A DNA stretch of 64,000 bases from an uncultured Candidatus Saccharibacteria bacterium (GCA_964530725.1 CAZGYV010000003.1:9744-73743); one strand, 5' to 3'; positions 28,287 to 61,292 are shown, numbered from the stretch's first letter. Notes: a model not told the origin generated them from the letters alone. Program-made: numbers and translations.

Positions 28287-28373
28287 TGGTACGGATGATA
28301 GGACTCGAACCTACACGGGTTTTACCCCACTAGCTCCTAAGGCTAGCGTGTCTACCAATTCCACCACATCCGC
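28287..28373 (-). tRNA. tRNA-Leu (anticodon TAG)
   Basis: 87-nt type-II tRNA: GCGGATG acceptor, AATTGGTAGA D-loop, anticodon loop CTTAGGA, long variable arm, GTAGG-TTCGAGT-CCTAT T-arm, encoded CCA. Close to E. coli tRNA-Leu. Confidence 0.9.
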
Positions 28374-49408: not shown

Positions 49409-50842
49409 TTATCCTTCTAAGTATTGTAGCAAGATGGCGTTGACCACACCAGGGTTTGCCTGCCCCTTCGTTGCTTTCATCACTTGGCCGACAAAATAGC
49501 CGATTGCCTTTTGGTTGCCACTGCGATAGTCAGCCACGGCCCTCGGATTTGCTTCGACCAGCTCGCGAATAATTGTCTCCAGCTCGGATGTATCCGATAG
49601 CTGGCTTAGGCCCTTAGCCTGAACAATTGCCGCTGGATCTTTTCCGTCAACCACTTCAGCAAAAATATCCTTGGCAATTTTCGAGCTAATAGTCCCTTGC
49701 TCGACTAGACTAATGAGACTAGCTAGATTAGCGGCCGTTAGCTTCGCTTGCTTAACGCCTTTTTGAGTCAAAATTGCCTGATAATCACCGACCAGCCAAT
49801 TGATGGCTTTTTTCTCTAATTTTTTATCACTCAAAATATTCTTAGCCTCGAAAAACAGCTCCGATAAGTACGGCTGGCCAATTAACATGTCCTGCTCGTC
49901 CACGTTCAAGGCCAGGCCATGCAGTTCTTTTCTAACTTCAATCGGCAAAACACCGACTTCGCGCTTAATCTCATCGATCATTTCTCGCGTAATCTTTAAT
50001 GGCGGCAAGTCGGGTTCGGGGAAGTAGCGATAGTCGTGGGCTTGCTCTTTGCCGCGCTGCGAAAAAGTCACCGACTTGGCGTCATTCCAGCCCCGGGTTT
50101 CCTGATCAATCGTGCCGCCTTCCTCTAAAATGCCAATTTGACGCTTAATTTCATACGTCAAAGCCCGCTCGGCGTTACGAAAACTGTTAAGATTTTTTAG
50201 CTCGGTTCGCGTACCCAGCTTTTTGGGGTCAGGCGAAACACTAACATTCAAATCAAATTTAAAATTGCCGTGCTCCATGTCACCATTGCTTATACCAAGA
50301 CAGGCAACGATATTGTAAATCTCTTGTAAATAACGCTTAGCTTCTTGAGGGCTGTGCAGCTCGGGCTTGGAAACAATTTCAACTAAAGGCGTGCCCGCTC
50401 GATTCAAATCGACTAATGAATGATCACCGTGATCGGGATGAACTAGCTTGCCAGCATCCTCTTCCAGATGGGCTCTTTCGACGCCAATTTTCTTGAATTC
50501 ACCGTCAACCAATATTTCAACCTCGCCGTCATGGACTATCGGCTGATCGTACTGGCTAATCTGGTAACCTTTGGGTGAGTCAGGGTAAAAATAATTTTTT
50601 CGGTCAAATTTGGTGTCGCGGGCGATCTTAGCATTAATACCCACGCCCAACTTAATTGCTAACTCTACCGCCCGGCGGTTTATGACCGGCAGTGTGCCGG
50701 GCAGCGCTAGGCAAACCGGGCAAATATTGGTATTGGGCAACGCGTCACGGCTTTCGTTGTCACAGCCACAAAACATTTTTGATTTTGTCGCTAGCTGAAC
50801 GTGGATTTCTATACCGATAGTCGGCAAATACTGTCTACTCAT
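49409..50842 (-). CDS. gatB: Asp-tRNA(Asn)/Glu-tRNA(Gln) amidotransferase subunit B
   Basis: GIEIHVQL, CGCD...CPVCLALPG zinc site, and C-terminal YqeY-like domain; 477 aa. Confidence 0.95.
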   Translation of the reverse strand: MSRQYLPTIGIEIHVQLATKSKMFCGCDNESRDALPNTNICPVCLALPGTLPVINRRAVELAIKLGVGINAKIARDTKFDRKNYFYPDSPKGYQISQYDQPIVHDGEVEILVDGEFKKIGVERAHLEEDAGKLVHPDHGDHSLVDLNRAGTPLVEIVSKPELHSPQEAKRYLQEIYNIVACLGISNGDMEHGNFKFDLNVSVSPDPKKLGTRTELKNLNSFRNAERALTYEIKRQIGILEEGGTIDQETRGWNDAKSVTFSQRGKEQAHDYRYFPEPDLPPLKITREMIDEIKREVGVLPIEVRKELHGLALNVDEQDMLIGQPYLSELFFEAKNILSDKKLEKKAINWLVGDYQAILTQKGVKQAKLTAANLASLISLVEQGTISSKIAKDIFAEVVDGKDPAAIVQAKGLSQLSDTSELETIIRELVEANPRAVADYRSGNQKAIGYFVGQVMKATKGQANPGVVNAILLQYLEG

Positions 50843-51294
50843 AGCCGCACTCCCAGATCGTTTATTCCGTCTTTTAGGTCTTTAATTGCTTTTTGGACCT
50901 GGGCGGGCACAAAGTCGTGGTTAACCTCATGCGCCATTTGATTGCGCAGCTTGTGAGCCGACCAAATCGCGTTTAGATCCCGATAAGACGTCCGCGCGGT
51001 CGAGCTTTGCAGCCTTTCGCCCATCGTCTCGCCAGCAAATCCCTTGCCTATCATGACGTAATCAAGCAATTTATCAGCTTCGAGCAGGGCGTTCTTCAGG
51101 CCACTTGGGGTATTTTGCATCGCCTCTATTTCGCCCCACTTCGTTTTCACCAACTCGATATCCAGAGTGCGGTGCGAAGGACTATATTTTGGCTCCGAAT
51201 AACCGCGATTAGATGATTTTTTACTACCAGTCAACGACATATAAAGCAGCAAACCGCCGCAAACCAAAATTGCCATAATAATAGATAGTGTCAC
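50839..51294 (-). CDS. membrane-anchored hypothetical protein with R-N-x3-H (HEPN-like) motif
   Basis: N-terminal TM helix (IIMAILVCGGLLLYM), then a helical domain with LRNQMAHEVNHD near the C-terminus. 4-nt overlaps with gatA upstream and gatB downstream. Confidence 0.5.
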   Translation of the reverse strand: MTLSIIMAILVCGGLLLYMSLTGSKKSSNRGYSEPKYSPSHRTLDIELVKTKWGEIEAMQNTPSGLKNALLEADKLLDYVMIGKGFAGETMGERLQSSTARTSYRDLNAIWSAHKLRNQMAHEVNHDFVPAQVQKAIKDLKDGINDLGVRL

Positions 51295-52784
51295 TTCAAT
51301 GCTCTCCGTTCGTGCCAGTTCGTCCTGGCTTCAAATGACTGAGCGGCGCTAAAAAGCTTGGCTTCCTGTCCTTGGGCAGCCATAATCTGCAAGCCAATCG
51401 GTAAATCATTTACAAAGCCGGCTGGCAGACTAATAGCCGGTATGCCAGCTAAGTTGGCCGCCACCGTCAGTACATCTGACATGTACATCTCAACCGGGCT
51501 TGTTTTGGTGCCAAACTGAAAAGCCGGTGTCGGCGTGGTTGGACCAATCAATACGTCAAATTTTTCGAATGCTTGATCAAAATCCTGCTTGATCAAAGTG
51601 CGCACCTTCATCGCCTGCTTATAATAGGCGTCGTAGTAGCCGGCCGAGAGCGTATAGGTGCCAGTTAAAATGCGCCGTTTCACCTCCGGCCCGAAAAATT
51701 CACCGCGCGTTTTAGTGTAGGTATCAAGCAAATTCTTGGCCGCCTTAGAGCTTGCGCCATAGCGAATACCATCATAGCGCTCTAGGTTGGAACTAATTTC
51801 TGAAGGCGTCAAAATATAATAACAAGGCAAAGCCAGCTTAACACTGTCGATACTAATCTGTTTGATTTCGTGGCCAGCTAGCTTCAATTCGTCAGCCGCT
51901 TGCTCGAAAGCTTGTCGATTCGCTTCATCAAGCGGTTCGACGTATTCTTTGACAATACCAATTTTCATTTTTTTATCATTTTTCGCCGCTGCGCTGTAGT
52001 TGTAGTTAGCAGCCTTAATGGTGGTCGAATCTTTCGCGTCCTGGCTGGCGATAATTTCGAGCACGATCGCTGTATCCTCGACACTGCGTGTCAGCGGACC
52101 AATCACGTCTAGACTCGAAGCCATCGCCACGACACCATAGCGGCTGACTAGCCCGTAGGTCGGCTTCAAACCAACAACGCCGCAAAAACTGGCGGGCTGG
52201 CGAATCGAGCCGCCGGTGTCGGTGCCAAGCGAAAAAACTCCAATGTCCGCCGCTACTGCCACGGCGCTGCCGCCGCTACTGCCGCCCGGCACGGAATCTT
52301 CGCGCCAGGGGTTGTGAGTCGAGTGGTAAGCGGAATTTTCCGTGCTGCCACCGTGGGCAAATTCATCTTGATTAACCTTAGCCAGCAGTATGGCGCCGGC
52401 TACATCCAGCTTCTCAATCACCGTGGCCGAATAGGGTGCTGTGAAATTATCTAGAATTTTACTAGCCGCGGTCGTCCTAATGCCGGCTGTCAAAAACATA
52501 TCTTTAGCCGTATAGGGAATGCCCTCAAGCAGGCCGATTTTTTCACCGCGCGATAGCTTATCATCGACGACTTTGGCAAGCTTACGAACAGATTGTTCGC
52601 AAATGGTTAAACTCGCCCGCAGCGTAGGGTCAATTGTCCGCAGGCGACCCAAATAGTAATCAGTGAGCTCGGTGGCTGTTACTTCGCCTGCGACTAAAAG
52701 CTGATGCGCGCTCTTAATGGTTAAATACGTAAGATTAGCCACTTTTTTAAAGTACTCTTCTAACCTTAATGTAGCCGTTTTCAC
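51291..52784 (-). CDS. gatA: Glu-tRNA(Gln) amidotransferase subunit A (amidase signature)
   Basis: Amidase signature GGSSGGSAVAVAA, Ser-cisSer-Lys catalytic context; 497 aa. Confidence 0.95.
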   Translation of the reverse strand: MKTATLRLEEYFKKVANLTYLTIKSAHQLLVAGEVTATELTDYYLGRLRTIDPTLRASLTICEQSVRKLAKVVDDKLSRGEKIGLLEGIPYTAKDMFLTAGIRTTAASKILDNFTAPYSATVIEKLDVAGAILLAKVNQDEFAHGGSTENSAYHSTHNPWREDSVPGGSSGGSAVAVAADIGVFSLGTDTGGSIRQPASFCGVVGLKPTYGLVSRYGVVAMASSLDVIGPLTRSVEDTAIVLEIIASQDAKDSTTIKAANYNYSAAAKNDKKMKIGIVKEYVEPLDEANRQAFEQAADELKLAGHEIKQISIDSVKLALPCYYILTPSEISSNLERYDGIRYGASSKAAKNLLDTYTKTRGEFFGPEVKRRILTGTYTLSAGYYDAYYKQAMKVRTLIKQDFDQAFEKFDVLIGPTTPTPAFQFGTKTSPVEMYMSDVLTVAANLAGIPAISLPAGFVNDLPIGLQIMAAQGQEAKLFSAAQSFEARTNWHERRALK

Positions 52785-53037
52785 TCATCGGCGCATTGGC
52801 CAGCAACTGCTCGCGAGTCAATTCGCACCGCTTCACGGTATCCTCTCGCCAAACGTCAACCAGTCCAGTCACTTGGCTGGTTGGCTCGATCCCAGAGGTG
52901 TCAATCGACTGTAGTTGATCGACGTAGTCCAAAATTGAGCTCAATTGCAAAGTCAATTGGTCTCGCTCTGAGGCGGTCAACTCGATTCGCGCCAGTCCGG
53001 CGATTTTCTCAACTTCTTGAATAGATAATTTTGCCAT
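52747..53037 (-). CDS. gatC: Glu-tRNA(Gln) amidotransferase subunit C
   Basis: 96 aa, MAKLSIQEVEKIAGLARIELTASE..., overlaps gatA start. Confidence 0.85.
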   Translation of the reverse strand: MAKLSIQEVEKIAGLARIELTASERDQLTLQLSSILDYVDQLQSIDTSGIEPTSQVTGLVDVWREDTVKRCELTREQLLANAPMSENGYIKVRRVL

Positions 53038-53156
53038 GTCTTACTAATATTCTAATGCCTTTCGGGGTGAAAGCTCAAGCATGAACATATTGTATGTTCT
53101 GCTGCGATGACCTTTTATTTTATTGATAAATATGCTATAATAGTAAAACATAGACC

Positions 53157-53485
53157 TGTAGAAAACCCTTACAGGGCAAAGGTCTATACGGGGAAGATGA
53201 GAGCGGGCGCATCAACCTACCTTTAAGCCGCCCAGGGAGGTCCTGCCAAAGGAGAAGTGCTCAAAGCTAGGGCATATCCGGCGCTAAACAACTAGCCCGG
53301 CCCGGAGGTTAACGGGTTTGACACCCAAAGGAACTCTGCTCTCACGAGGGTAGTGCCAGTTCGTCTGGATAACAGATAGCCTAAGGCAATCTGCCAGCTT
53401 GTTGGCACTACCCGCCGCCCCTAAAGTCTTCTCTGCTTTGAGCGCCCTTGTTTGGCCGGTCCACATCGGCTAAGCGAGGTGCTTT

Positions 53486-53487
<2 letters not shown>
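53157..53487. ncRNA. candidate structured non-coding RNA (about 330 nt), identity unresolved (RNase P RNA / long SRP RNA / other)
   Basis: A 448-nt gap lies between gatC and ligA with no credible ORF and above-background GC. Long-range complementary pairs are present: GCGCTCAAAGCAGAGAAG with CTTCTCCTTTG..GCTTTGAGC, and GGGTAGTGCCA with TGGCACTACCC. A TATAAT box at 53146-53151 and a hairpin plus CTTTTT at 53462-53487 favour the plus strand. Short matches to RNase P motifs occur on opposite strands, so no family is assigned. Confidence 0.3.
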
Positions 53488-56261
<2,774 letters not shown>

Positions 56262-58690: not shown

Positions 58691-58776
58691 TGGTGCCCGG
58701 GGCGAGACTCGAACTCGCAAGCCATAAAGGCAAGGGATTTTAAGTCCCTCGTGTATACCAATTCCACCACCCGGGC
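58691..58776 (-). tRNA. tRNA-Leu (anticodon TAA)
   Basis: 86-nt type-II tRNA: acceptor GCCCGGG/CCCGGGC, anticodon loop CTTAAAA, long variable arm, GCGAG-TTCGAGT-CTCGC T-arm, encoded CCA. Confidence 0.9.
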
Positions 58777-58986
58777 TCGCTTAAGACTTGTTCCGGACGC
58801 AAAGGTTTTCATAATTTTTATTTCAAATTGCTTTCCCTGCAGCTAACCAGATCTAAACTCAAATCAAAGTGATATCAGCTAACTAGTCTCAAAATGACAA
58901 AGCCTTTGTCATTTTGTTAAGGAGGCTTTATGCGCAAGCTGTAATTGTGGCATTAGACACAATGAAAGCTGTAGCATAAAACGACG

Positions 58987-59060
58987 TGGAGGCACCTAGC
59001 GGAATCGAACCGCTGTACAGGGTTTTGCAGACCCTTGCCTAACCACTCGGCCAAGGTGCC
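58987..59060 (-). tRNA. tRNA-Cys (anticodon GCA)
   Basis: 74 nt: acceptor GGCACCT/AGGTGCC, anticodon loop CTGCAAA, T-arm AGCGG-TTCGATT-CCGCT, discriminator U, encoded CCA. Confidence 0.9.
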
Positions 59061-59229
59061 AAATACGCTTGTAAAAACTTGCTAATTATATAAGATTATG
59101 TCTTGATTGTAAAAGGTCTGGCATTTGAAGGTAATTTTTGCTATCATAGCGAAGTTACCTTGATACAATTATATACGACAAACGCATTGATCGGTATCAA
59201 CTAGCACTTGACATTCGTCGGATCACAGT

Positions 59230-59300
59230 ATGGCACCTTAGCTCAGTGGTGTTTCGCGGCAGCGAACCTTAAAATCGTCGCTCTACCAGAACGGTAAAGC
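59230..59300 (+). pseudogene. scrambled tRNA-Phe pseudo-copy (5' fragment plus inverted internal fragment)
   Basis: GGCACCTTAGCTCAGTGGT matches the first 19 nt of the intact tRNA-Phe 110 nt downstream apart from one indel, then diverges. GTCGCTCTACCA further on is the reverse complement of the tRNA-Phe D-loop/anticodon-stem segment. It cannot fold into a cloverleaf. Confidence 0.4.
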
Positions 59301-59339
59301 AATGACAGCCAGAGTAAAAATGATTATCATGAGAGTTAT

Positions 59340-59415
59340 GGCACCTTAGCTCAGTTGGTAGAGCGACGGCCTGAAGAGCCGTGCGTCGCTGGTTCGATTC
59401 CAGCAGGTGCCACCA
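59340..59415 (+). tRNA. tRNA-Phe (anticodon GAA)
   Basis: 76 nt: GGCACCT acceptor, AGTTGGTAGAGC D-arm, anticodon loop CTGAAGA, GCTGG-TTCGATT-CCAGC T-arm, ACCA end. Confidence 0.9.
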
Positions 59416-59487
59416 CGTCGTTTTGGGCTTCGACTTCCGCTTCGAGTAAATACTCAAAGCTACAGTCTGCACCCAAAGCCTCCTTTT

Positions 59488-59532
59488 CAAATCAAAGCTC
59501 GCTGCCGCTAACACTTTGATTTGGGGGTTTTT
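59488..59532 (+). terminator. intrinsic terminator downstream of tRNA-Phe
   Basis: CAAATCAAAG-loop-CTTTGATTTG 10-bp stem followed by GGGGTTTTT. Confidence 0.4.
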
Positions 59533-59693
59533 AGGCCTTTGATATTAACATAATAGAATAGATAAGTGACGGAACTTAAAATCATAAAATTTTGTAATTT
59601 ATATCATCAATGCATAAAATTATAGATATAAATTATGAAAAATTTGTGATTTTATAGAGGAGAGGTTTGGCTCAAATTTGAGGTCTCAAGTCG

Positions 59694-61292
59694 TTAAGAC
59701 TTTAGACGAAAAATGAAGCCATTCTCGACGAGCGGGTGTAGCTCAGCTGATAGAGCGCTTCCTTGCCAAGGAAGAGGCCCCGGGTTTGAGTCCCGGTACC
59801 CGCACCAAATATTTGAATTATGAGCCGCAAGGCTCTTTTTCTTTGTTTCAACGACTGTTCTAAAGGGGTCGTTTAGTATATAAGACAACTTCTTATCCTT
59901 TAGTTCAATGTTTGAAAGTACGTATTCCAGCAACTTCTGTCTTAGCCCCTCATCGCTCTCGTTGAATAGCTGTTCAGCCCGTTGTGCCAAGTCTAACAGA
60001 TAGGATGCGGTAACTTGAAAGTCTTTGTTGTCGCTTGTTAGCAACTTTAGGCGGTCATTCAGCTCCTGCTGTTTCTTTTCTAGCTCAGTTGCAATTTCAT
60101 CGTGGAATGTCTGTGTAATACGACCCTCAAGTAAGTCATAGTAAACCTTACGCATCTTTTCTTTGAGTTTGTCGTACTCAGCACGGGTTTGCTCAATGTT
60201 TTGCGTGAAGTACAGCTGCTGGTCATTATGACGGTTACGCAGCTCGGTGATGACTTTATCTAACCACTTCTCAGGCACGTCTATAAATCCTATATCTTCC
60301 GTAACCTTATCAATTACAAGGCTAACGGCTGTATTCGGATTATCGCACTTTGCGTTGGCACATCGCAAATACACGGTGTTACGAGCCTTGAACGGCGATA
60401 CTGCACGTCCGCATTTGCCGCACTTTACTATCTTTTTCAGGGTAAAGTCTTTGCTGTCGTACTTTGTCATCTCGTGCTTACGTTCATCACGGACACACTG
60501 AACCTGATTGTACAAGCCACGACTGATGAGTGGCGGGTACTTGTGCGGGTAGCGTCTGCCAGCGTGAACCATAAAACCGCAATAAAACTCGTTGCTTAAT
60601 ATTCTTTCAATAAACTGTTTGCTTGGTGCTTTACTGCCAGCAATGTTGCTACGAAAGCCCATCTCACGCAGTTCCTTAGCAATGACGGCGTATGATATGC
60701 CTCTTGCTCGCATTTCGTAGGCTTTCATTATGTAGTGAGCCTTAGTGTCATCAACTTCAATATCTTTGATTGGTTTCTGTGGCGTACCGCCTTTTAGTAC
60801 GTTCTTGTAACCGACAGGTGCTCTATGTACCCATATACCCTCACTCAGCATTTGCTCAAAGCGGCGTTTGACGTTATCTCGGATGCTGTCTGAGTAGTAT
60901 TTAGCCAATGCCATACCGATACCGAGCCTGAACCAATCGGCTGCTGACGAGTTTTGGTCAATGTACAGGCTATCGTGCGGGAAGTGCAGCTCAATTTTGC
61001 CGAGCTTTACCAGCTGCTGTAATGCTTTTACTTCCTCTTGGCTGCTATCACGAGTAAAGCGGTCAATTTTATCAAAGACCACGTAGCACAAAGTTGGCTG
61101 CTTTTGGATGTGTTCAACGAGCTTAGCGAACTTCTGTCGTTCTTCTTTATGAGCACTCTCGTCAAACTCGTGGTACTCGTAGGGTAGTTTCTTTTGTTCG
61201 GCGTATCTTTCAAGCCGTAACTTTTGAGCTGGCAACGCTTTTCGTTGCTCAATATCTGATACTCGTGCGATTAGGATTATCTTTGCGTCCAT
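59694..61292 (-). CDS. large serine recombinase (serine integrase)
   Basis: N-terminal resolvase catalytic domain (IARVSDIEQ with the catalytic Ser, and DRFTRD), a central recombinase domain, a Cys4 zinc ribbon (CGKCGRAV...CANAKC) and a coiled-coil C-terminus. The final roughly 50 codons are read antisense through tRNA-Gly and its terminator. Confidence 0.85.
   Translation of the reverse strand: MDAKIILIARVSDIEQRKALPAQKLRLERYAEQKKLPYEYHEFDESAHKEERQKFAKLVEHIQKQPTLCYVVFDKIDRFTRDSSQEEVKALQQLVKLGKIELHFPHDSLYIDQNSSAADWFRLGIGMALAKYYSDSIRDNVKRRFEQMLSEGIWVHRAPVGYKNVLKGGTPQKPIKDIEVDDTKAHYIMKAYEMRARGISYAVIAKELREMGFRSNIAGSKAPSKQFIERILSNEFYCGFMVHAGRRYPHKYPPLISRGLYNQVQCVRDERKHEMTKYDSKDFTLKKIVKCGKCGRAVSPFKARNTVYLRCANAKCDNPNTAVSLVIDKVTEDIGFIDVPEKWLDKVITELRNRHNDQQLYFTQNIEQTRAEYDKLKEKMRKVYYDLLEGRITQTFHDEIATELEKKQQELNDRLKLLTSDNKDFQVTASYLLDLAQRAEQLFNESDEGLRQKLLEYVLSNIELKDKKLSYILNDPFRTVVETKKKSLAAHNSNIWCGYRDSNPGPLPWQGSALSAELHPLVENGFIFRLKS
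59732..59807 (+). tRNA. tRNA-Gly (anticodon GCC)
   Basis: 76 nt: GCGGGTG acceptor, AGCTGATAGAGC D-arm, anticodon loop TTGCCAA, CCGGG-TTTGAGT-CCCGG T-arm, ACCA end. Close to E. coli tRNA-Gly(GCC). Confidence 0.9.
59822..59845 (+). terminator. intrinsic terminator downstream of tRNA-Gly (GNRA-looped hairpin plus U-tract)
   Basis: GAGCC-GCAA-GGCTC followed by TTTTTCTTTGTTT. It lies antisense inside the 3' end of the recombinase ORF. Confidence 0.5.

What the first reader, a model, noticed from the sequence alone, without database searches (positions are those of the whole stretch)
53038..53487. Unassigned roughly 330-nt structured RNA candidate between gatC and ligA
This is a 448-nt ORF-free, GC-enriched gap containing several perfect long-range complementarities (11-bp GGGTAGTGCCA/TGGCACTACCC, and 9+6-bp GCTCAAAGCAGAGAAG/CTTCTC..GCTTTGAGC), a local 7-bp hairpin near the putative 5' end, a TATAAT box and a hairpin plus U-tract overlapping the ligA stop. 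Short stretches resemble RNase P motifs (a GTGCCAGTTCGTCTGG P8-like hairpin and an ACAGATAGC J11/12-like element on the plus strand, and a CCTGGGCGGCTTA P4-3'-like element on the minus strand), but they conflict in strand. It may be a divergent RNase P or SRP RNA, or a lineage-specific sRNA.
Basis: seen in the sequence. Interest (0 to 1): 0.55.

Follow-up and report, generated by a model that had tools for sequence, protein, structure and literature searches.

The report
New structured RNA gene, uncultured bacteria
The gap between the ligA and gatC genes holds a real RNA gene of about 340 bases whose intricate fold is kept in five diverged relatives, matches no known RNA family, and has no known function.

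Summary
Window 53148-53487 (+ strand, antisense to ligA and gatC) is a stand-alone RNA gene. It has an extended -10 promoter (TGCTATAAT, 53133-53141), a 5' hairpin, a 236-nt core of about ten helices (53188-53423), and an intrinsic terminator (53442-53487).

Five diverged lineages carry it in the same gap. Their cores are only 43-60% identical, yet 96% of proposed base pairs are kept, and 40 of 63 pairs show compensatory double changes. G.U pairs outnumber A.C mismatches 34 to 3, which fixes the strand as +. A covariance model built from the window sequence alone recovers all the other lineages and nothing else in 0.9 Mb.

No Rfam family matches in three lineages at E<=10. ARAGORN finds no tmRNA. 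No ORF is conserved.

RNase P is rejected. SRP, tmRNA, 6S and the cobalamin riboswitch also fail.

Best reading: a new, narrowly distributed, fold-dependent trans-acting RNA in a Patescibacteria-like clade. It may self-pair through a palindromic loop. Its function is unknown.

The parts
53133..53141 (+). Extended -10 promoter TGCTATAAT. The predicted transcription start is near 53148.
   Evidence: Read directly from the sequence. -10-like boxes (TATAAT or TAATAT) sit at the equivalent place upstream of the 5' hairpin in all five lineages (sequences). There is no -35 box, so the consensus scan did not list it. The start site is inferred, not shown.
53150..53187 (+). 5'-terminal hairpin H0 (AUAGACCU...AGGUCUAU).
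   Evidence: It appears in the minimum-free-energy fold. A hairpin occupies the same place in every lineage although the sequences differ.
53188..53423 (+). Conserved structured core of 236 nt. It contains helices P1-P8.
   Evidence: Hand alignment A2 of 7 distinct sequences: 96.2% of cells paired, 40 of 63 pairs with compensatory changes, 0 of 500 shuffles as good, slid controls 36-46% paired. G.U versus A.C cells are 34 versus 3.
53190..53193 (+). P1 5' strand GGGG. It pairs with CCCC at 53418-53421. This helix is tentative in the window (only 4 bp).
   Evidence: The helix is 5-8 bp in the other lineages and shows compensatory changes (helix 1). In the window an alternative pairing, GGGGAAGA with UCUUCUCU (53428-53435), is possible.
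53198..53204 (+). P2 5' strand UGAGAGC. It pairs with GCUCUCA at 53338-53344.
   Evidence: 6 of 8 columns show double changes (helix 2). RNAalifold recovers the helix.
53205..53233 (+). P3 hairpin (GGGCG / CGCCC) with the 19-nt loop L3.
   Evidence: 100% of cells paired. The stem reads GGGCU/AGCCC, GGAUG/CAUCC and GGACG/CGUCC in relatives.
53234..53247 (+). J3/4 (AGG) followed by the P4 and P4b 5' strand GAGGUCCU-GCC. Family consensus RAG-GNNNUYCU-GYY. It pairs with AGGAACUC (53329-53336) and GGU (53307-53309).
   Evidence: P4 is 96% paired with 3 compensatory columns. P4b reads GCC/GGU, GCU/GGU and GUU/GAU across lineages.
53257..53275 (+). P5 hairpin (GUGCUC / GGGCAU) with loop AAAGCUA, which contains the palindrome AGCU.
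   Evidence: 5 of 6 pairs are compensatory. Every lineage carries a palindrome in this loop: AGCU, UGCGCA or UCUAGA.
53280..53298 (+). P6 hairpin with an A-rich loop (AACAAC; CAAGNAAU in relatives).
   Evidence: 4 of 6 pairs are compensatory and 100% of cells are paired (helix 7).
53307..53336 (+). Three-way junction: P4b 3' strand GGU, junction NAAC, P7 hairpin (GGGU/ACCC), junction AA, P4 3' strand AGGAACUC.
   Evidence: GGUNAACGG and CCAAAGGA are conserved in 4 of 5 lineages. P7 covaries (helix 8).
53348..53413 (+). P8 long hairpin. It has a 12-bp outer stem, a conserved internal loop (UUCGU / CUUG), a 4-bp CUGG/CCAG helix, a variable arm and a UAA/UAC apical triloop.
   Evidence: 9 of 12 outer pairs are compensatory (helix 9). 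RNAalifold recovers the hairpin on a plain MAFFT alignment.
53442..53487 (+). Intrinsic terminator: a long G+C-rich hairpin followed by UUUUU. It overlaps the ligA stop codon, which is on the opposite strand.
   Evidence: Found by the terminator scan. An equivalent hairpin plus U-run is present in the relatives. Between the window and L082 a G.U pair in the stem becomes G-C.

Best explanation
This is the gene for a previously undescribed, lineage-specific structured non-coding RNA of about 340 nt. It is transcribed from its own extended -10 promoter on the + strand, antisense to both neighbouring genes, and ends at its own intrinsic terminator.

Anatomy of the RNA:
- A 5' hairpin, which I infer is protective.
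- A compact core in which P1 and P2 close the molecule.
- P3, a hairpin.
- A continuous stack of P4, P4b and P4a that carries two hairpins, P5 and P6.
- P7, which branches off at a three-way junction with conserved GGU-NAAC and AA linkers.
- A long arm, P8, with a conserved internal loop.

Helices change sequence freely while keeping their pairing, whereas junction and loop bases stay fixed. I therefore infer that the RNA acts in trans through its three-dimensional fold, as a binding scaffold for a protein or ligand or possibly as a catalyst, and not through antisense base pairing. A self-complementary sequence kept in loop L5 suggests that two copies may join through a kissing-loop contact.

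Shown: the gene exists, its strand, its secondary structure, its conservation, and the absence of any match to a known family. Inferred: the transcript ends, action in trans, and dimer formation. The biochemical function is not known.
For: Homology and covariation:
- Seven distinct sequences from five lineages occupy the same ligA-gatC gap.
- Core identity between deep lineages is only 43-60%. Even so, 96.2% of pair cells are standard pairs and 40 of 63 pairs have compensatory changes. No shuffle out of 500 does as well, and slid controls give 36-46% paired.
- A covariance model built from the window sequence plus my structure alone finds L098 (61 bits, E 5e-11), L086 (35 bits) and L095/L119 (30 bits) in 893 kb, and L092 (36.7 bits) with filters off. 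All matches cover the full model.
- The model-made alignment gives 92.9% paired and 19 of 40 compensatory pairs.
- RNAalifold recovers P8 on a plain MAFFT alignment, and P2, P3, P4, P4b, P5, P6 and P7 on the model alignment.

Strand:
- 34 G.U cells against 3 A.C cells.
- Fold z-score -4.8 on the + strand against -2.2 on the - strand.
- The + strand carries both the terminator and TGCTATAAT.

Not a known family and not coding:
- No relevant Rfam match at E<=10 in three lineages.
- ARAGORN finds no tmRNA.
- No conserved ORF.

Dimer idea:
- Loop L5 carries AGCU, UGCGCA or UCUAGA. The joint chance is about 0.002, or about 0.007 after allowing for the four loops I examined.
Against: - No expression data exist, so the transcript ends are predictions.
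- Only seven distinct sequences, from about four deep lineages, are available. The main alignment was made by hand and fitted to the structure.
- P1 is only 4 bp in the window, and P4a is weak in the window and in L098.
- The RNA was found only at one locus in one narrow clade. Relatives with 64-69% GatC identity carry protein genes or a short gap there instead.
- A pattern scan of JGI metagenomes found no further member.
- No associated protein gene tracks with the RNA, so nothing points to a partner or a function.
- The palindrome argument was made after seeing the data.
Confidence: 0.6

Rival explanations
1. It is a drastically reduced, divergent RNase P RNA. Candidate-phyla bacteria are known to have RNase P RNAs that fall below the Rfam thresholds.
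For: - Lui et al. 2021 (PMC8172020) report that 10 of 35 circular CPR genomes needed lowered thresholds to find RNase P RNA, and that helices were missing.
- The order closing helix, P3 hairpin, purine-rich RAGGR, then a UYCUG strand forming a long-range helix around a multi-hairpin domain recalls P1/P2, P3, J3/4 and P4.
- The family consensus RAGGRNNUYCUGYY shares about 8-11 of 15 positions with CR-I, GAGGAAAGUCCGGGC. This comparison rests on my own knowledge of the consensus.
Against: - No RNaseP_bact_a/b, archaeal or nuclear RNase P hit at E<=10 in three lineages.
- The 3' strand of the P4-like helix lies before the P2 3' strand, so the two helices are nested, and both are backed by covariation. 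In RNase P, P4 crosses P2 as a pseudoknot (my knowledge).
- The P4-like helix is a continuous 8-bp helix with no bulged uridine in any lineage.
- No ACAGAA...GGCUUA element exists on the + strand. The GGCUUA string on the - strand lies in the non-conserved loop L3.
- The P2-to-P2' domain is only 149 nt.
- The family is confined to a narrow clade.
Confidence: 0.05
2. It is a cis-antisense regulator. The RNA is fully complementary to the spacer of a ligA-gatCAB read-through transcript. It would act by duplex formation, for example RNase III cleavage that uncouples the genes or transcriptional interference.
For: - The RNA gene fills the whole spacer on the opposite strand, and its terminator overlaps the ligA stop codon.
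- In the window, the hairpin read on the - strand is not followed by a U-run, so ligA transcription may continue into the spacer.
Against: - Antisense action needs no conserved fold, yet selection clearly maintains about ten helices on the + strand, with 34 G.U cells that would be A.C mismatches on the - strand.
- gatC has its own conserved promoter-like site downstream of the RNA region.
- In L086 the hairpin is flanked by an A-run and so looks like a two-way terminator that would also stop ligA transcripts.
Confidence: 0.12
3. It is a ligand-sensing (riboswitch-like) RNA whose terminator is the expression platform. It would control antisense transcription into ligA, or it would be a sensor-bearing sRNA.
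For: - It has a multi-helix junction with invariant unpaired bases followed by a terminator.
- In L086 the string AAGCCCGAGGAUAUCCUGCC resembles the B12 box AAGCCCGAAGACCUGCC of the cobalamin riboswitch (my knowledge of the box).
- In the window, the linker after the core is complementary to P5 and to the 5' end.
Against: - No riboswitch family matches at E<=10.
- The 'AGCCC' part of the apparent B12 box is the covarying P3 3' strand: CGCCC, CAUCC and CGUCC in other lineages.
- No gene lies downstream on the + strand.
- The linker and its alternative pairings are not conserved.
- The terminator stems are long (about 15 bp or more), which suggests constant termination.
Confidence: 0.05
4. The conserved structure belongs to the - strand, as a leader or spacer element of the gatCAB mRNA. 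Alternatively, the region encodes a small protein.
For: - Watson-Crick covariation is the same on both strands.
- The gap lies just upstream of gatC.
- A 60-aa ORF was called here in one public contig.
Against: - G.U versus A.C cells are 34 versus 3, which favours the + strand.
- The - strand fold z-score is only -2.2.
- The promoter and terminator are on the + strand.
- A gatC promoter-like site lies between the structure and gatC.
- ORFs in the gap differ in frame, position and sequence in every lineage, and the 60-aa ORF is already altered in the 94% relative.
- No gene was called in the gap of L082, L086, L092, L095 or L098.
Confidence: 0.03

Closest known systems
Bacterial RNase P RNA (Rfam RF00010 / RF00011)
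   Same: - Similar size class, and a stand-alone gene with its own promoter and terminator.
- Closing helices, then a P3 hairpin, then a purine-rich RAGGR linker, then a UYCUG strand that forms a long-range helix around a multi-hairpin domain.
- CPR bacteria are documented to carry divergent forms (PMC8172020).
   Different: - The helices are nested, with no P4 pseudoknot.
- There is no bulged U in the P4-like helix and no CR-V.
- There is no specificity-domain signature.
- No Rfam hit even at E<=10.
- The P2-to-P2' domain is only 149 nt.
- An extra 66-nt arm (P8) lies between the P2 and P1 3' strands.
- It is restricted to a narrow clade.
Orphan complex-folded bacterial ncRNAs (raiA motif, OLE, ROOL, GOLLD)
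   Same: - Independently transcribed.
- Many covarying helices with invariant junction nucleotides, and no coding potential.
- Found by comparative analysis before any function was known.
- To my knowledge OLE, ROOL and GOLLD form RNA-only homo-oligomers. The palindromic L5 loop here would allow a kissing-loop dimer.
   Different: - No sequence or structure match to any of them in Rfam 15.
- A different host group (Patescibacteria-like rather than Firmicutes or phage).
- Smaller than OLE, ROOL and GOLLD.
- The known distribution is much narrower.
Cobalamin riboswitch (B12 box)
   Same: In two lineages the string AAGCCCGAGGA..CCUGCC resembles the B12 box. GGUGAAC and CCCGCAA recall other B12-riboswitch words.
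   Different: - The order of these elements is different.
- The 'AGCCC' part is a covarying helix strand and is not conserved.
- No Rfam hit.
- No regulated gene lies downstream.
SRP RNA, tmRNA and 6S RNA
   Same: They are abundant, stable, structured housekeeping RNAs of 100-400 nt with their own promoters and terminators.
   Different: - No Rfam or ARAGORN hit.
- No GNRA-capped helix 8 with symmetric and asymmetric loops.
- No tRNA-like domain, CCA end or tag reading frame.
- The shape is not a rod with a central bubble.

Membership tests
Any Rfam 15 family (4227 models) | Covariance-model match at the gathering score, or at least a consistent weak match across orthologs. | tested here: not met
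   At the gathering score the whole window gives only 5 tRNAs. At E<=10 the window gap, the L086 gap and the L098 gap give only unrelated chance hits that differ between lineages. At E<=1 six related loci give nothing in the gap.
RNase P RNA | The P4 long-range helix forms a pseudoknot, with its 3' strand lying after the P2 3' strand. | tested here: not met
   The 3' strand of the P4-like helix (53329-53336) lies before the P2 3' strand (53338-53344). Both helices are supported by compensatory changes (helices 2 and 4). The defining topology is taken from my knowledge of RNase P.
RNase P RNA | CR-I GAGGAAAGUCC, with a universally conserved bulged U in P4. | tested here: not met
   The consensus RAG-GNNNUYCU only partly resembles CR-I. 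The helix is a continuous 8 bp without a bulge in all five lineages.
RNase P RNA | CR-V ACAGAAnnnGGCUUA, the 3' strand of P4. | tested here: not met
   It is absent from the + strand. The GGCUUA string on the - strand (53222-53227) lies in loop L3, which is not conserved.
RNase P RNA | Pre-tRNA 5' leader cleavage activity. | not testable with these tools
   This needs an in vitro assay with the RNA, with and without RnpA.
tmRNA | A tRNA-like domain (acceptor stem with CCA end, T-arm) and a tag reading frame. | tested here: not met
   ARAGORN finds no tmRNA in the window and Rfam gives no hit. No conserved short reading frame exists; for example the GGUNAAC stop-like triplet is lost in L098 and L092.
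SRP RNA (4.5S or Bacillus type) | A helix 8 hairpin with a GNRA tetraloop and conserved symmetric and asymmetric loops. | tested here: not met
   No Rfam hit. The P8 tip is a UAA/UAC triloop, and the internal loop UYCGW / CUYRW lacks the AGCA and GGAA elements.
6S RNA | A long irregular rod with a large central bubble. | tested here: not met
   The covariation-supported structure is multi-branched, with three branch points. No Rfam hit.
Cobalamin riboswitch | A conserved B12 box and core, located upstream of a regulated gene. | tested here: not met
   No RF00174 or RF01689 hit at E<=10. The box-like string covaries as a helix strand. No gene lies downstream on the + strand.
Stand-alone bacterial sRNA gene | Its own promoter and a Rho-independent terminator on the same strand, with no coding potential. 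| tested here: met
   TGCTATAAT is at 53133-53141 and the + strand terminator is at 53446-53487. Both signals recur in all lineages. No ORF is conserved. Transcription itself was not tested.
Structured RNA (fold under selection) | Compensatory base changes that maintain the helices across diverged homologs. | tested here: met

The most novel reading that the evidence does not exclude
This is the first member of a new class of ornate, fold-dependent RNA in uncultivated Patescibacteria-like bacteria. It would work without a dedicated neighbouring protein gene, either as an RNA-only homodimer assembled through the palindromic L5 kissing loop or as a new ribozyme. A variant of this reading is an 'unknotted' miniature relative of the RNase P catalytic core.
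Probability: 0.2. Interest if true: 0.85.

Novelty: categorically new. Interest (0 to 1): 0.62.

Why it matters
Complex, multi-helix non-coding RNAs with conserved junctions are rare. In the past such RNAs have turned out to be ribozymes, riboswitches or parts of essential ribonucleoprotein machines.

Patescibacteria (CPR) have tiny genomes in which a 340-nt non-coding gene is a notable investment, and almost nothing is known about their RNA biology. Here the gene, its strand, a covariation-backed secondary structure and a working covariance model are all defined. The RNA can therefore be synthesised and tested directly for structure, self-association, ligands and catalysis.

The result also removes a false lead, because this is not the RNase P or SRP RNA of the organism.

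The value is limited by the very narrow known distribution and the complete lack of functional clues.

Tried and rejected
1. Rfam scans. I ran one at gathering score and three short-region scans at E<=10, plus six loci at E<=1. Only chance hits appeared: SNORD61, rli45, the bZIP intron, Atu_Ti3, ceN63 and DUF805b.
2. ARAGORN for tmRNA found none.
3. nhmmer with the gap against 80 ligA loci from other bacteria gave no hit.
4. Genome-collection scan with LigA. The best relative is only 64% identical and has a 236-aa ORF in place of the RNA.
5. Pattern scan AGAGN{6,7}TCCTTTGGN{7,14}CCGTTNACC. Viral contigs gave 0 hits. JGI metagenomes gave 11 hits, all without the other family elements and mostly inside coding-looking sequence. 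That matches the chance expectation I estimated by hand.
6. More distant GatC relatives (64-69% identity) carry protein genes or a 133-nt gap at this locus.
7. blastn of the RNA against the phage and plasmid collections gave no match.
8. Permuted cobalamin riboswitch idea. Rejected because the box-like string is a covarying helix strand and Rfam gives no hit.
9. tmRNA-like topology (P1, P2 ... P2', hairpin, P1'). Rejected because there is no T-loop, no CCA end and no conserved tag frame.
10. Neither is conserved.
11. Extra pseudoknots (L3 with J4b/5; J4b/5 with the P8 internal loop). Complementary stretches exist but are inconsistent between lineages. Only J3/4 (RAG) with the start of the P8 3' internal loop (CUY) is complementary in all five lineages. 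That is 3 bp, too short to claim.
12. Literature searches for CPR or Saccharibacteria structured RNAs found nothing describing this RNA.

Full report
WHAT IS AT THE COORDINATES. The finding covers the 448-nt gap 53038-53485. It lies between gatC (52747-53037) and ligA (53486-55516), both on the - strand. gatA and gatB follow gatC. The + strand of 53140-53490 folds much better than shuffled sequence (z = -4.8, 0 of 100 shuffles as good), whereas the - strand gives z = -2.2. A terminator-like hairpin followed by TGCTTTTT lies on the + strand at 53446-53487 and overlaps the ligA stop codon. TGCTATAAT, an extended -10 box, lies at 53133-53141. The gap is not strictly ORF-free, because it holds 35-60 aa ORFs. 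Its G+C content (54-58% in the core) stands out only against the AT-rich promoter stretch.

ORGANISM. The closest LigA among 185,579 species genomes is only 64% identical ('MAG: bacterium SJ655'). The next hits, at no more than 50%, are a mix of Patescibacteria and other phyla. Named GatC relatives at about 53% identity are Candidatus Saccharimonadia or Saccharimonadales. The window therefore comes from a poorly sampled lineage that is probably related to Patescibacteria (CPR). This placement is an inference.

HOMOLOGS. I looked up the contigs that encode GatC proteins 65-94% identical to the window's. The same ligA-gap-gatC layout appeared, with a gene-free gap of 450-550 nt, in these lineages:
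- L082 (94% GatC identity; RNA nearly identical to the window).
- L086 (73%).
- L092 (73%).
- L095 and L119 (70-71%).
- L098 (65%).
These come, and give seven distinct sequences.

Other relatives at 64-69% identity, and the 64% LigA relative, lack the gap:
- L101 has only a 133-nt gap.
- L103, L106 and L107 have a 902-935 aa gene there.
- L104 has two small genes there.
- L001 has a 236-aa ORF there.

A strict pattern built from the most conserved words matched every RNA-bearing locus. It matched nothing in viral contigs. In JGI metagenomes it gave only 11 chance-like hits. Phage and plasmid collections hold nothing similar.

STRUCTURE. Comparing the lineages gives one consistent architecture (window coordinates):
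- H0, a 5' hairpin, 53150-53187.
- P1, 53190-53193 with 53418-53421.
- P2, 53198-53204 with 53338-53344.
- P3, a hairpin, 53205-53233.
- J3/4, sequence RAG.
- P4, 53237-53244 with 53329-53336, continued by P4b, 53245-53247 with 53307-53309.
- A short P4a helix enclosing the hairpins P5 (53257-53275) and P6 (53280-53298).
- Junction NAAC, the hairpin P7 (53314-53326), then junction AA.
- P8, a long arm, 53348-53413. It has a 12-bp outer stem, an internal loop UYCGW / CUYRW, a CUGG/CCAG helix and a UAA/UAC triloop.
- A variable linker, then the terminator.

On my hand alignment (A2; gaps were written as N so that the tool kept my columns), 96.2% of 425 pair cells are standard pairs. Of the 63 pairs, 40 show changes on both sides. 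None of 500 shuffles reaches any of the observed values. Sliding the partners by 1-3 columns drops pairing to 36-46% and leaves only 5-11 compensatory pairs. Between deep lineages the core is only 43-60% identical.

I ran three checks that do not depend on my hand alignment:
- A covariance model built from the window sequence alone plus the proposed structure (R1, the 149-nt P2-to-P2' domain) finds L098 at 61 bits (E 5e-11), L086 at 35 bits and L095/L119 at 30 bits in 893 kb. It finds L092 at 36.7 bits with filters off. All matches are full length. The alignment it produces has 92.9% pairing and 19 of 40 compensatory pairs.
- RNAalifold on a plain MAFFT alignment recovers P8, with 19 pairs of which 7 are compensatory.
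- RNAalifold on the model alignment recovers P2, P3, P4, P4b, a 3-bp P4a, P5, P6 and P7, with 41 pairs of which 26 are compensatory.
The family model R2 finds only the seven known members in 895 kb. There is no second copy in the window and nothing near ligA in 80 other bacteria.

STRAND AND CODING. Within the helices there are 34 G.U cells and only 3 A.C cells. On the - strand the G.U pairs would become mismatches. Together with the promoter, the terminator and the fold z-scores, this places the RNA on the + strand, antisense to both neighbours. ORFs in the gap differ in frame, place and sequence in every lineage. The 60-aa ORF that a gene caller annotated in one contig is already altered in the 94% relative. 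Gene callers left the gap empty in the other five lineages.

WHAT IT IS NOT. Rfam 15 gives nothing in the gap at gathering score. It also gives nothing consistent at E<=10 in three lineages searched as short stretches. ARAGORN finds no tmRNA.

The RNase P idea deserved care. Lui et al. (PMC8172020) showed that many CPR RNase P RNAs fall below Rfam thresholds and lack helices. There is a real resemblance here: closing helices, a P3 hairpin, then RAGGR...UYCUG forming a long-range helix around a multi-hairpin domain. The defining features fail, however. (These features are taken from established knowledge of RNase P, not from a tool.)
- The 3' strand of the P4-like helix precedes the P2 3' strand, so the helices are nested rather than crossed.
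- That helix has no bulged uridine in any lineage.
- There is no ACAGAA...GGCUUA element.

SRP fails because there is no GNRA-capped helix 8. 6S fails because the shape is not a rod with a bubble. A B12-box-like string (AAGCCCGAGGA..CCUGCC in L086) also fails, because its 'AGCCC' is a covarying helix strand, Rfam gives no hit, and there is no downstream gene.

HOW IT PROBABLY WORKS. What is shown: a conserved gene with + strand signals and a fold under purifying selection. Helices vary freely in sequence, while junction and loop bases stay fixed (for example GGUNAAC, the AA before AGGA, CG in the P8 internal loop, and G after P8).

What is inferred: the RNA acts in trans through its three-dimensional shape, by binding a protein or small molecule or by catalysis. 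Two observations hint at higher-order contacts.
- Loop L5 always carries a self-complementary word: AGCU in three lineages, UGCGCA in L086, and UCUAGA in L095/L119. The joint chance is about 0.002, or about 0.007 after allowing for the four loops I examined. This would permit a kissing-loop homodimer.
- J3/4 (AGG, AAG or GAG) is complementary to the first bases of the P8 3' internal loop (CUU or CUC) in all five lineages. This would dock P8 on the core, but it is only 3 bp.

The rivals are as follows:
- Cis-antisense control of a ligA-gatCAB read-through transcript. This is possible, because the RNA covers the whole spacer, but it does not explain the selected fold.
- A riboswitch-like sensor. 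There is no downstream gene, the linker is not conserved, and the terminators are strong.
- A - strand leader or a small protein. The G.U bias and the lack of a conserved ORF argue against both.
- A reduced RNase P, as discussed above.

NOVELTY AND LIMITS. By every test available the RNA belongs to no described family. It is a new family whose function is unknown. The evidence base is small, with seven sequences from about four deep lineages, one locus, and no expression data. The scans of the genome and metagenome collections were exhausted, so I could not check whether more distant relatives carry the RNA elsewhere, or whether these genomes hold ordinary rnpB, ffs and ssrA genes. Both checks are listed as decisive next steps.

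Noticed in passing
window 53070-53089: The 20-nt block AAAGCTCAAGCATGAACATA is identical in four of the five RNA-bearing lineages and differs at 2 positions in L098. The RNA itself has diverged to 43-60% identity. The block sits at a fixed distance of about 32 nt from the gatC ATG but at a variable distance from the RNA promoter. On the - strand it contains the gatC -35-like TTGAGC. It is absent from relatives that lack the RNA (L101-L107). It may be an operator or promoter element shared by the divergent gatC and RNA promoters.
   Followed up: partly
window 50839-51294 (- strand): A 151-aa ORF sits between gatA and gatB with overlapping stop and start codons. It has no Pfam hit. An ORF of 151-156 aa sits at the same place in all relatives examined, including those without the RNA. 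It is an unexplained extra gene inside the gatCAB operon.
   Followed up: partly
window 55467-56261 (- strand): A 264-aa ORF overlaps the ligA start by about 50 nt. It has no NCBIfam or Pfam hit. ORFs of 248-265 aa sit at the same place in relatives.
   Followed up: partly
L103 132-2840; L106 and L107 60-2867; L104 1936-2909; L001 6069-6779: In relatives that lack the RNA, the ligA-gatC interval holds other genes with no Pfam hit on record: a 902-935 aa protein, a 186-aa plus 102-aa pair, or a 236-aa ORF (not checked against Pfam). This interval appears to be a hot spot for gene turnover.
   Followed up: no
L081 81-263 (= window 53284-53466, - strand): A public gene call of 60 aa lies antisense to the RNA core. 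It is not conserved even in the 94% relative and is very likely a spurious annotation.
   Followed up: yes
window 58691-59807 and 28287-28373: There are four tRNA genes on both strands within 1.1 kb (Leu-TAA, Cys-GCA, Phe-GAA, Gly-GCC), plus a lone tRNA-Leu-TAG. No rRNA, RNase P RNA, SRP RNA or tmRNA gene lies anywhere in the 64-kb window.
   Followed up: no
window 53424-53443: The linker after the core (UAAAGUCUUCUCUGCUUUGAGC) is complementary both to the 5' end (GGGGAAGA) and to the P5 5' strand (GCUCAAAGC). This is specific to the window and L082, so it is either chance or a lineage-specific alternative fold.
   Followed up: partly
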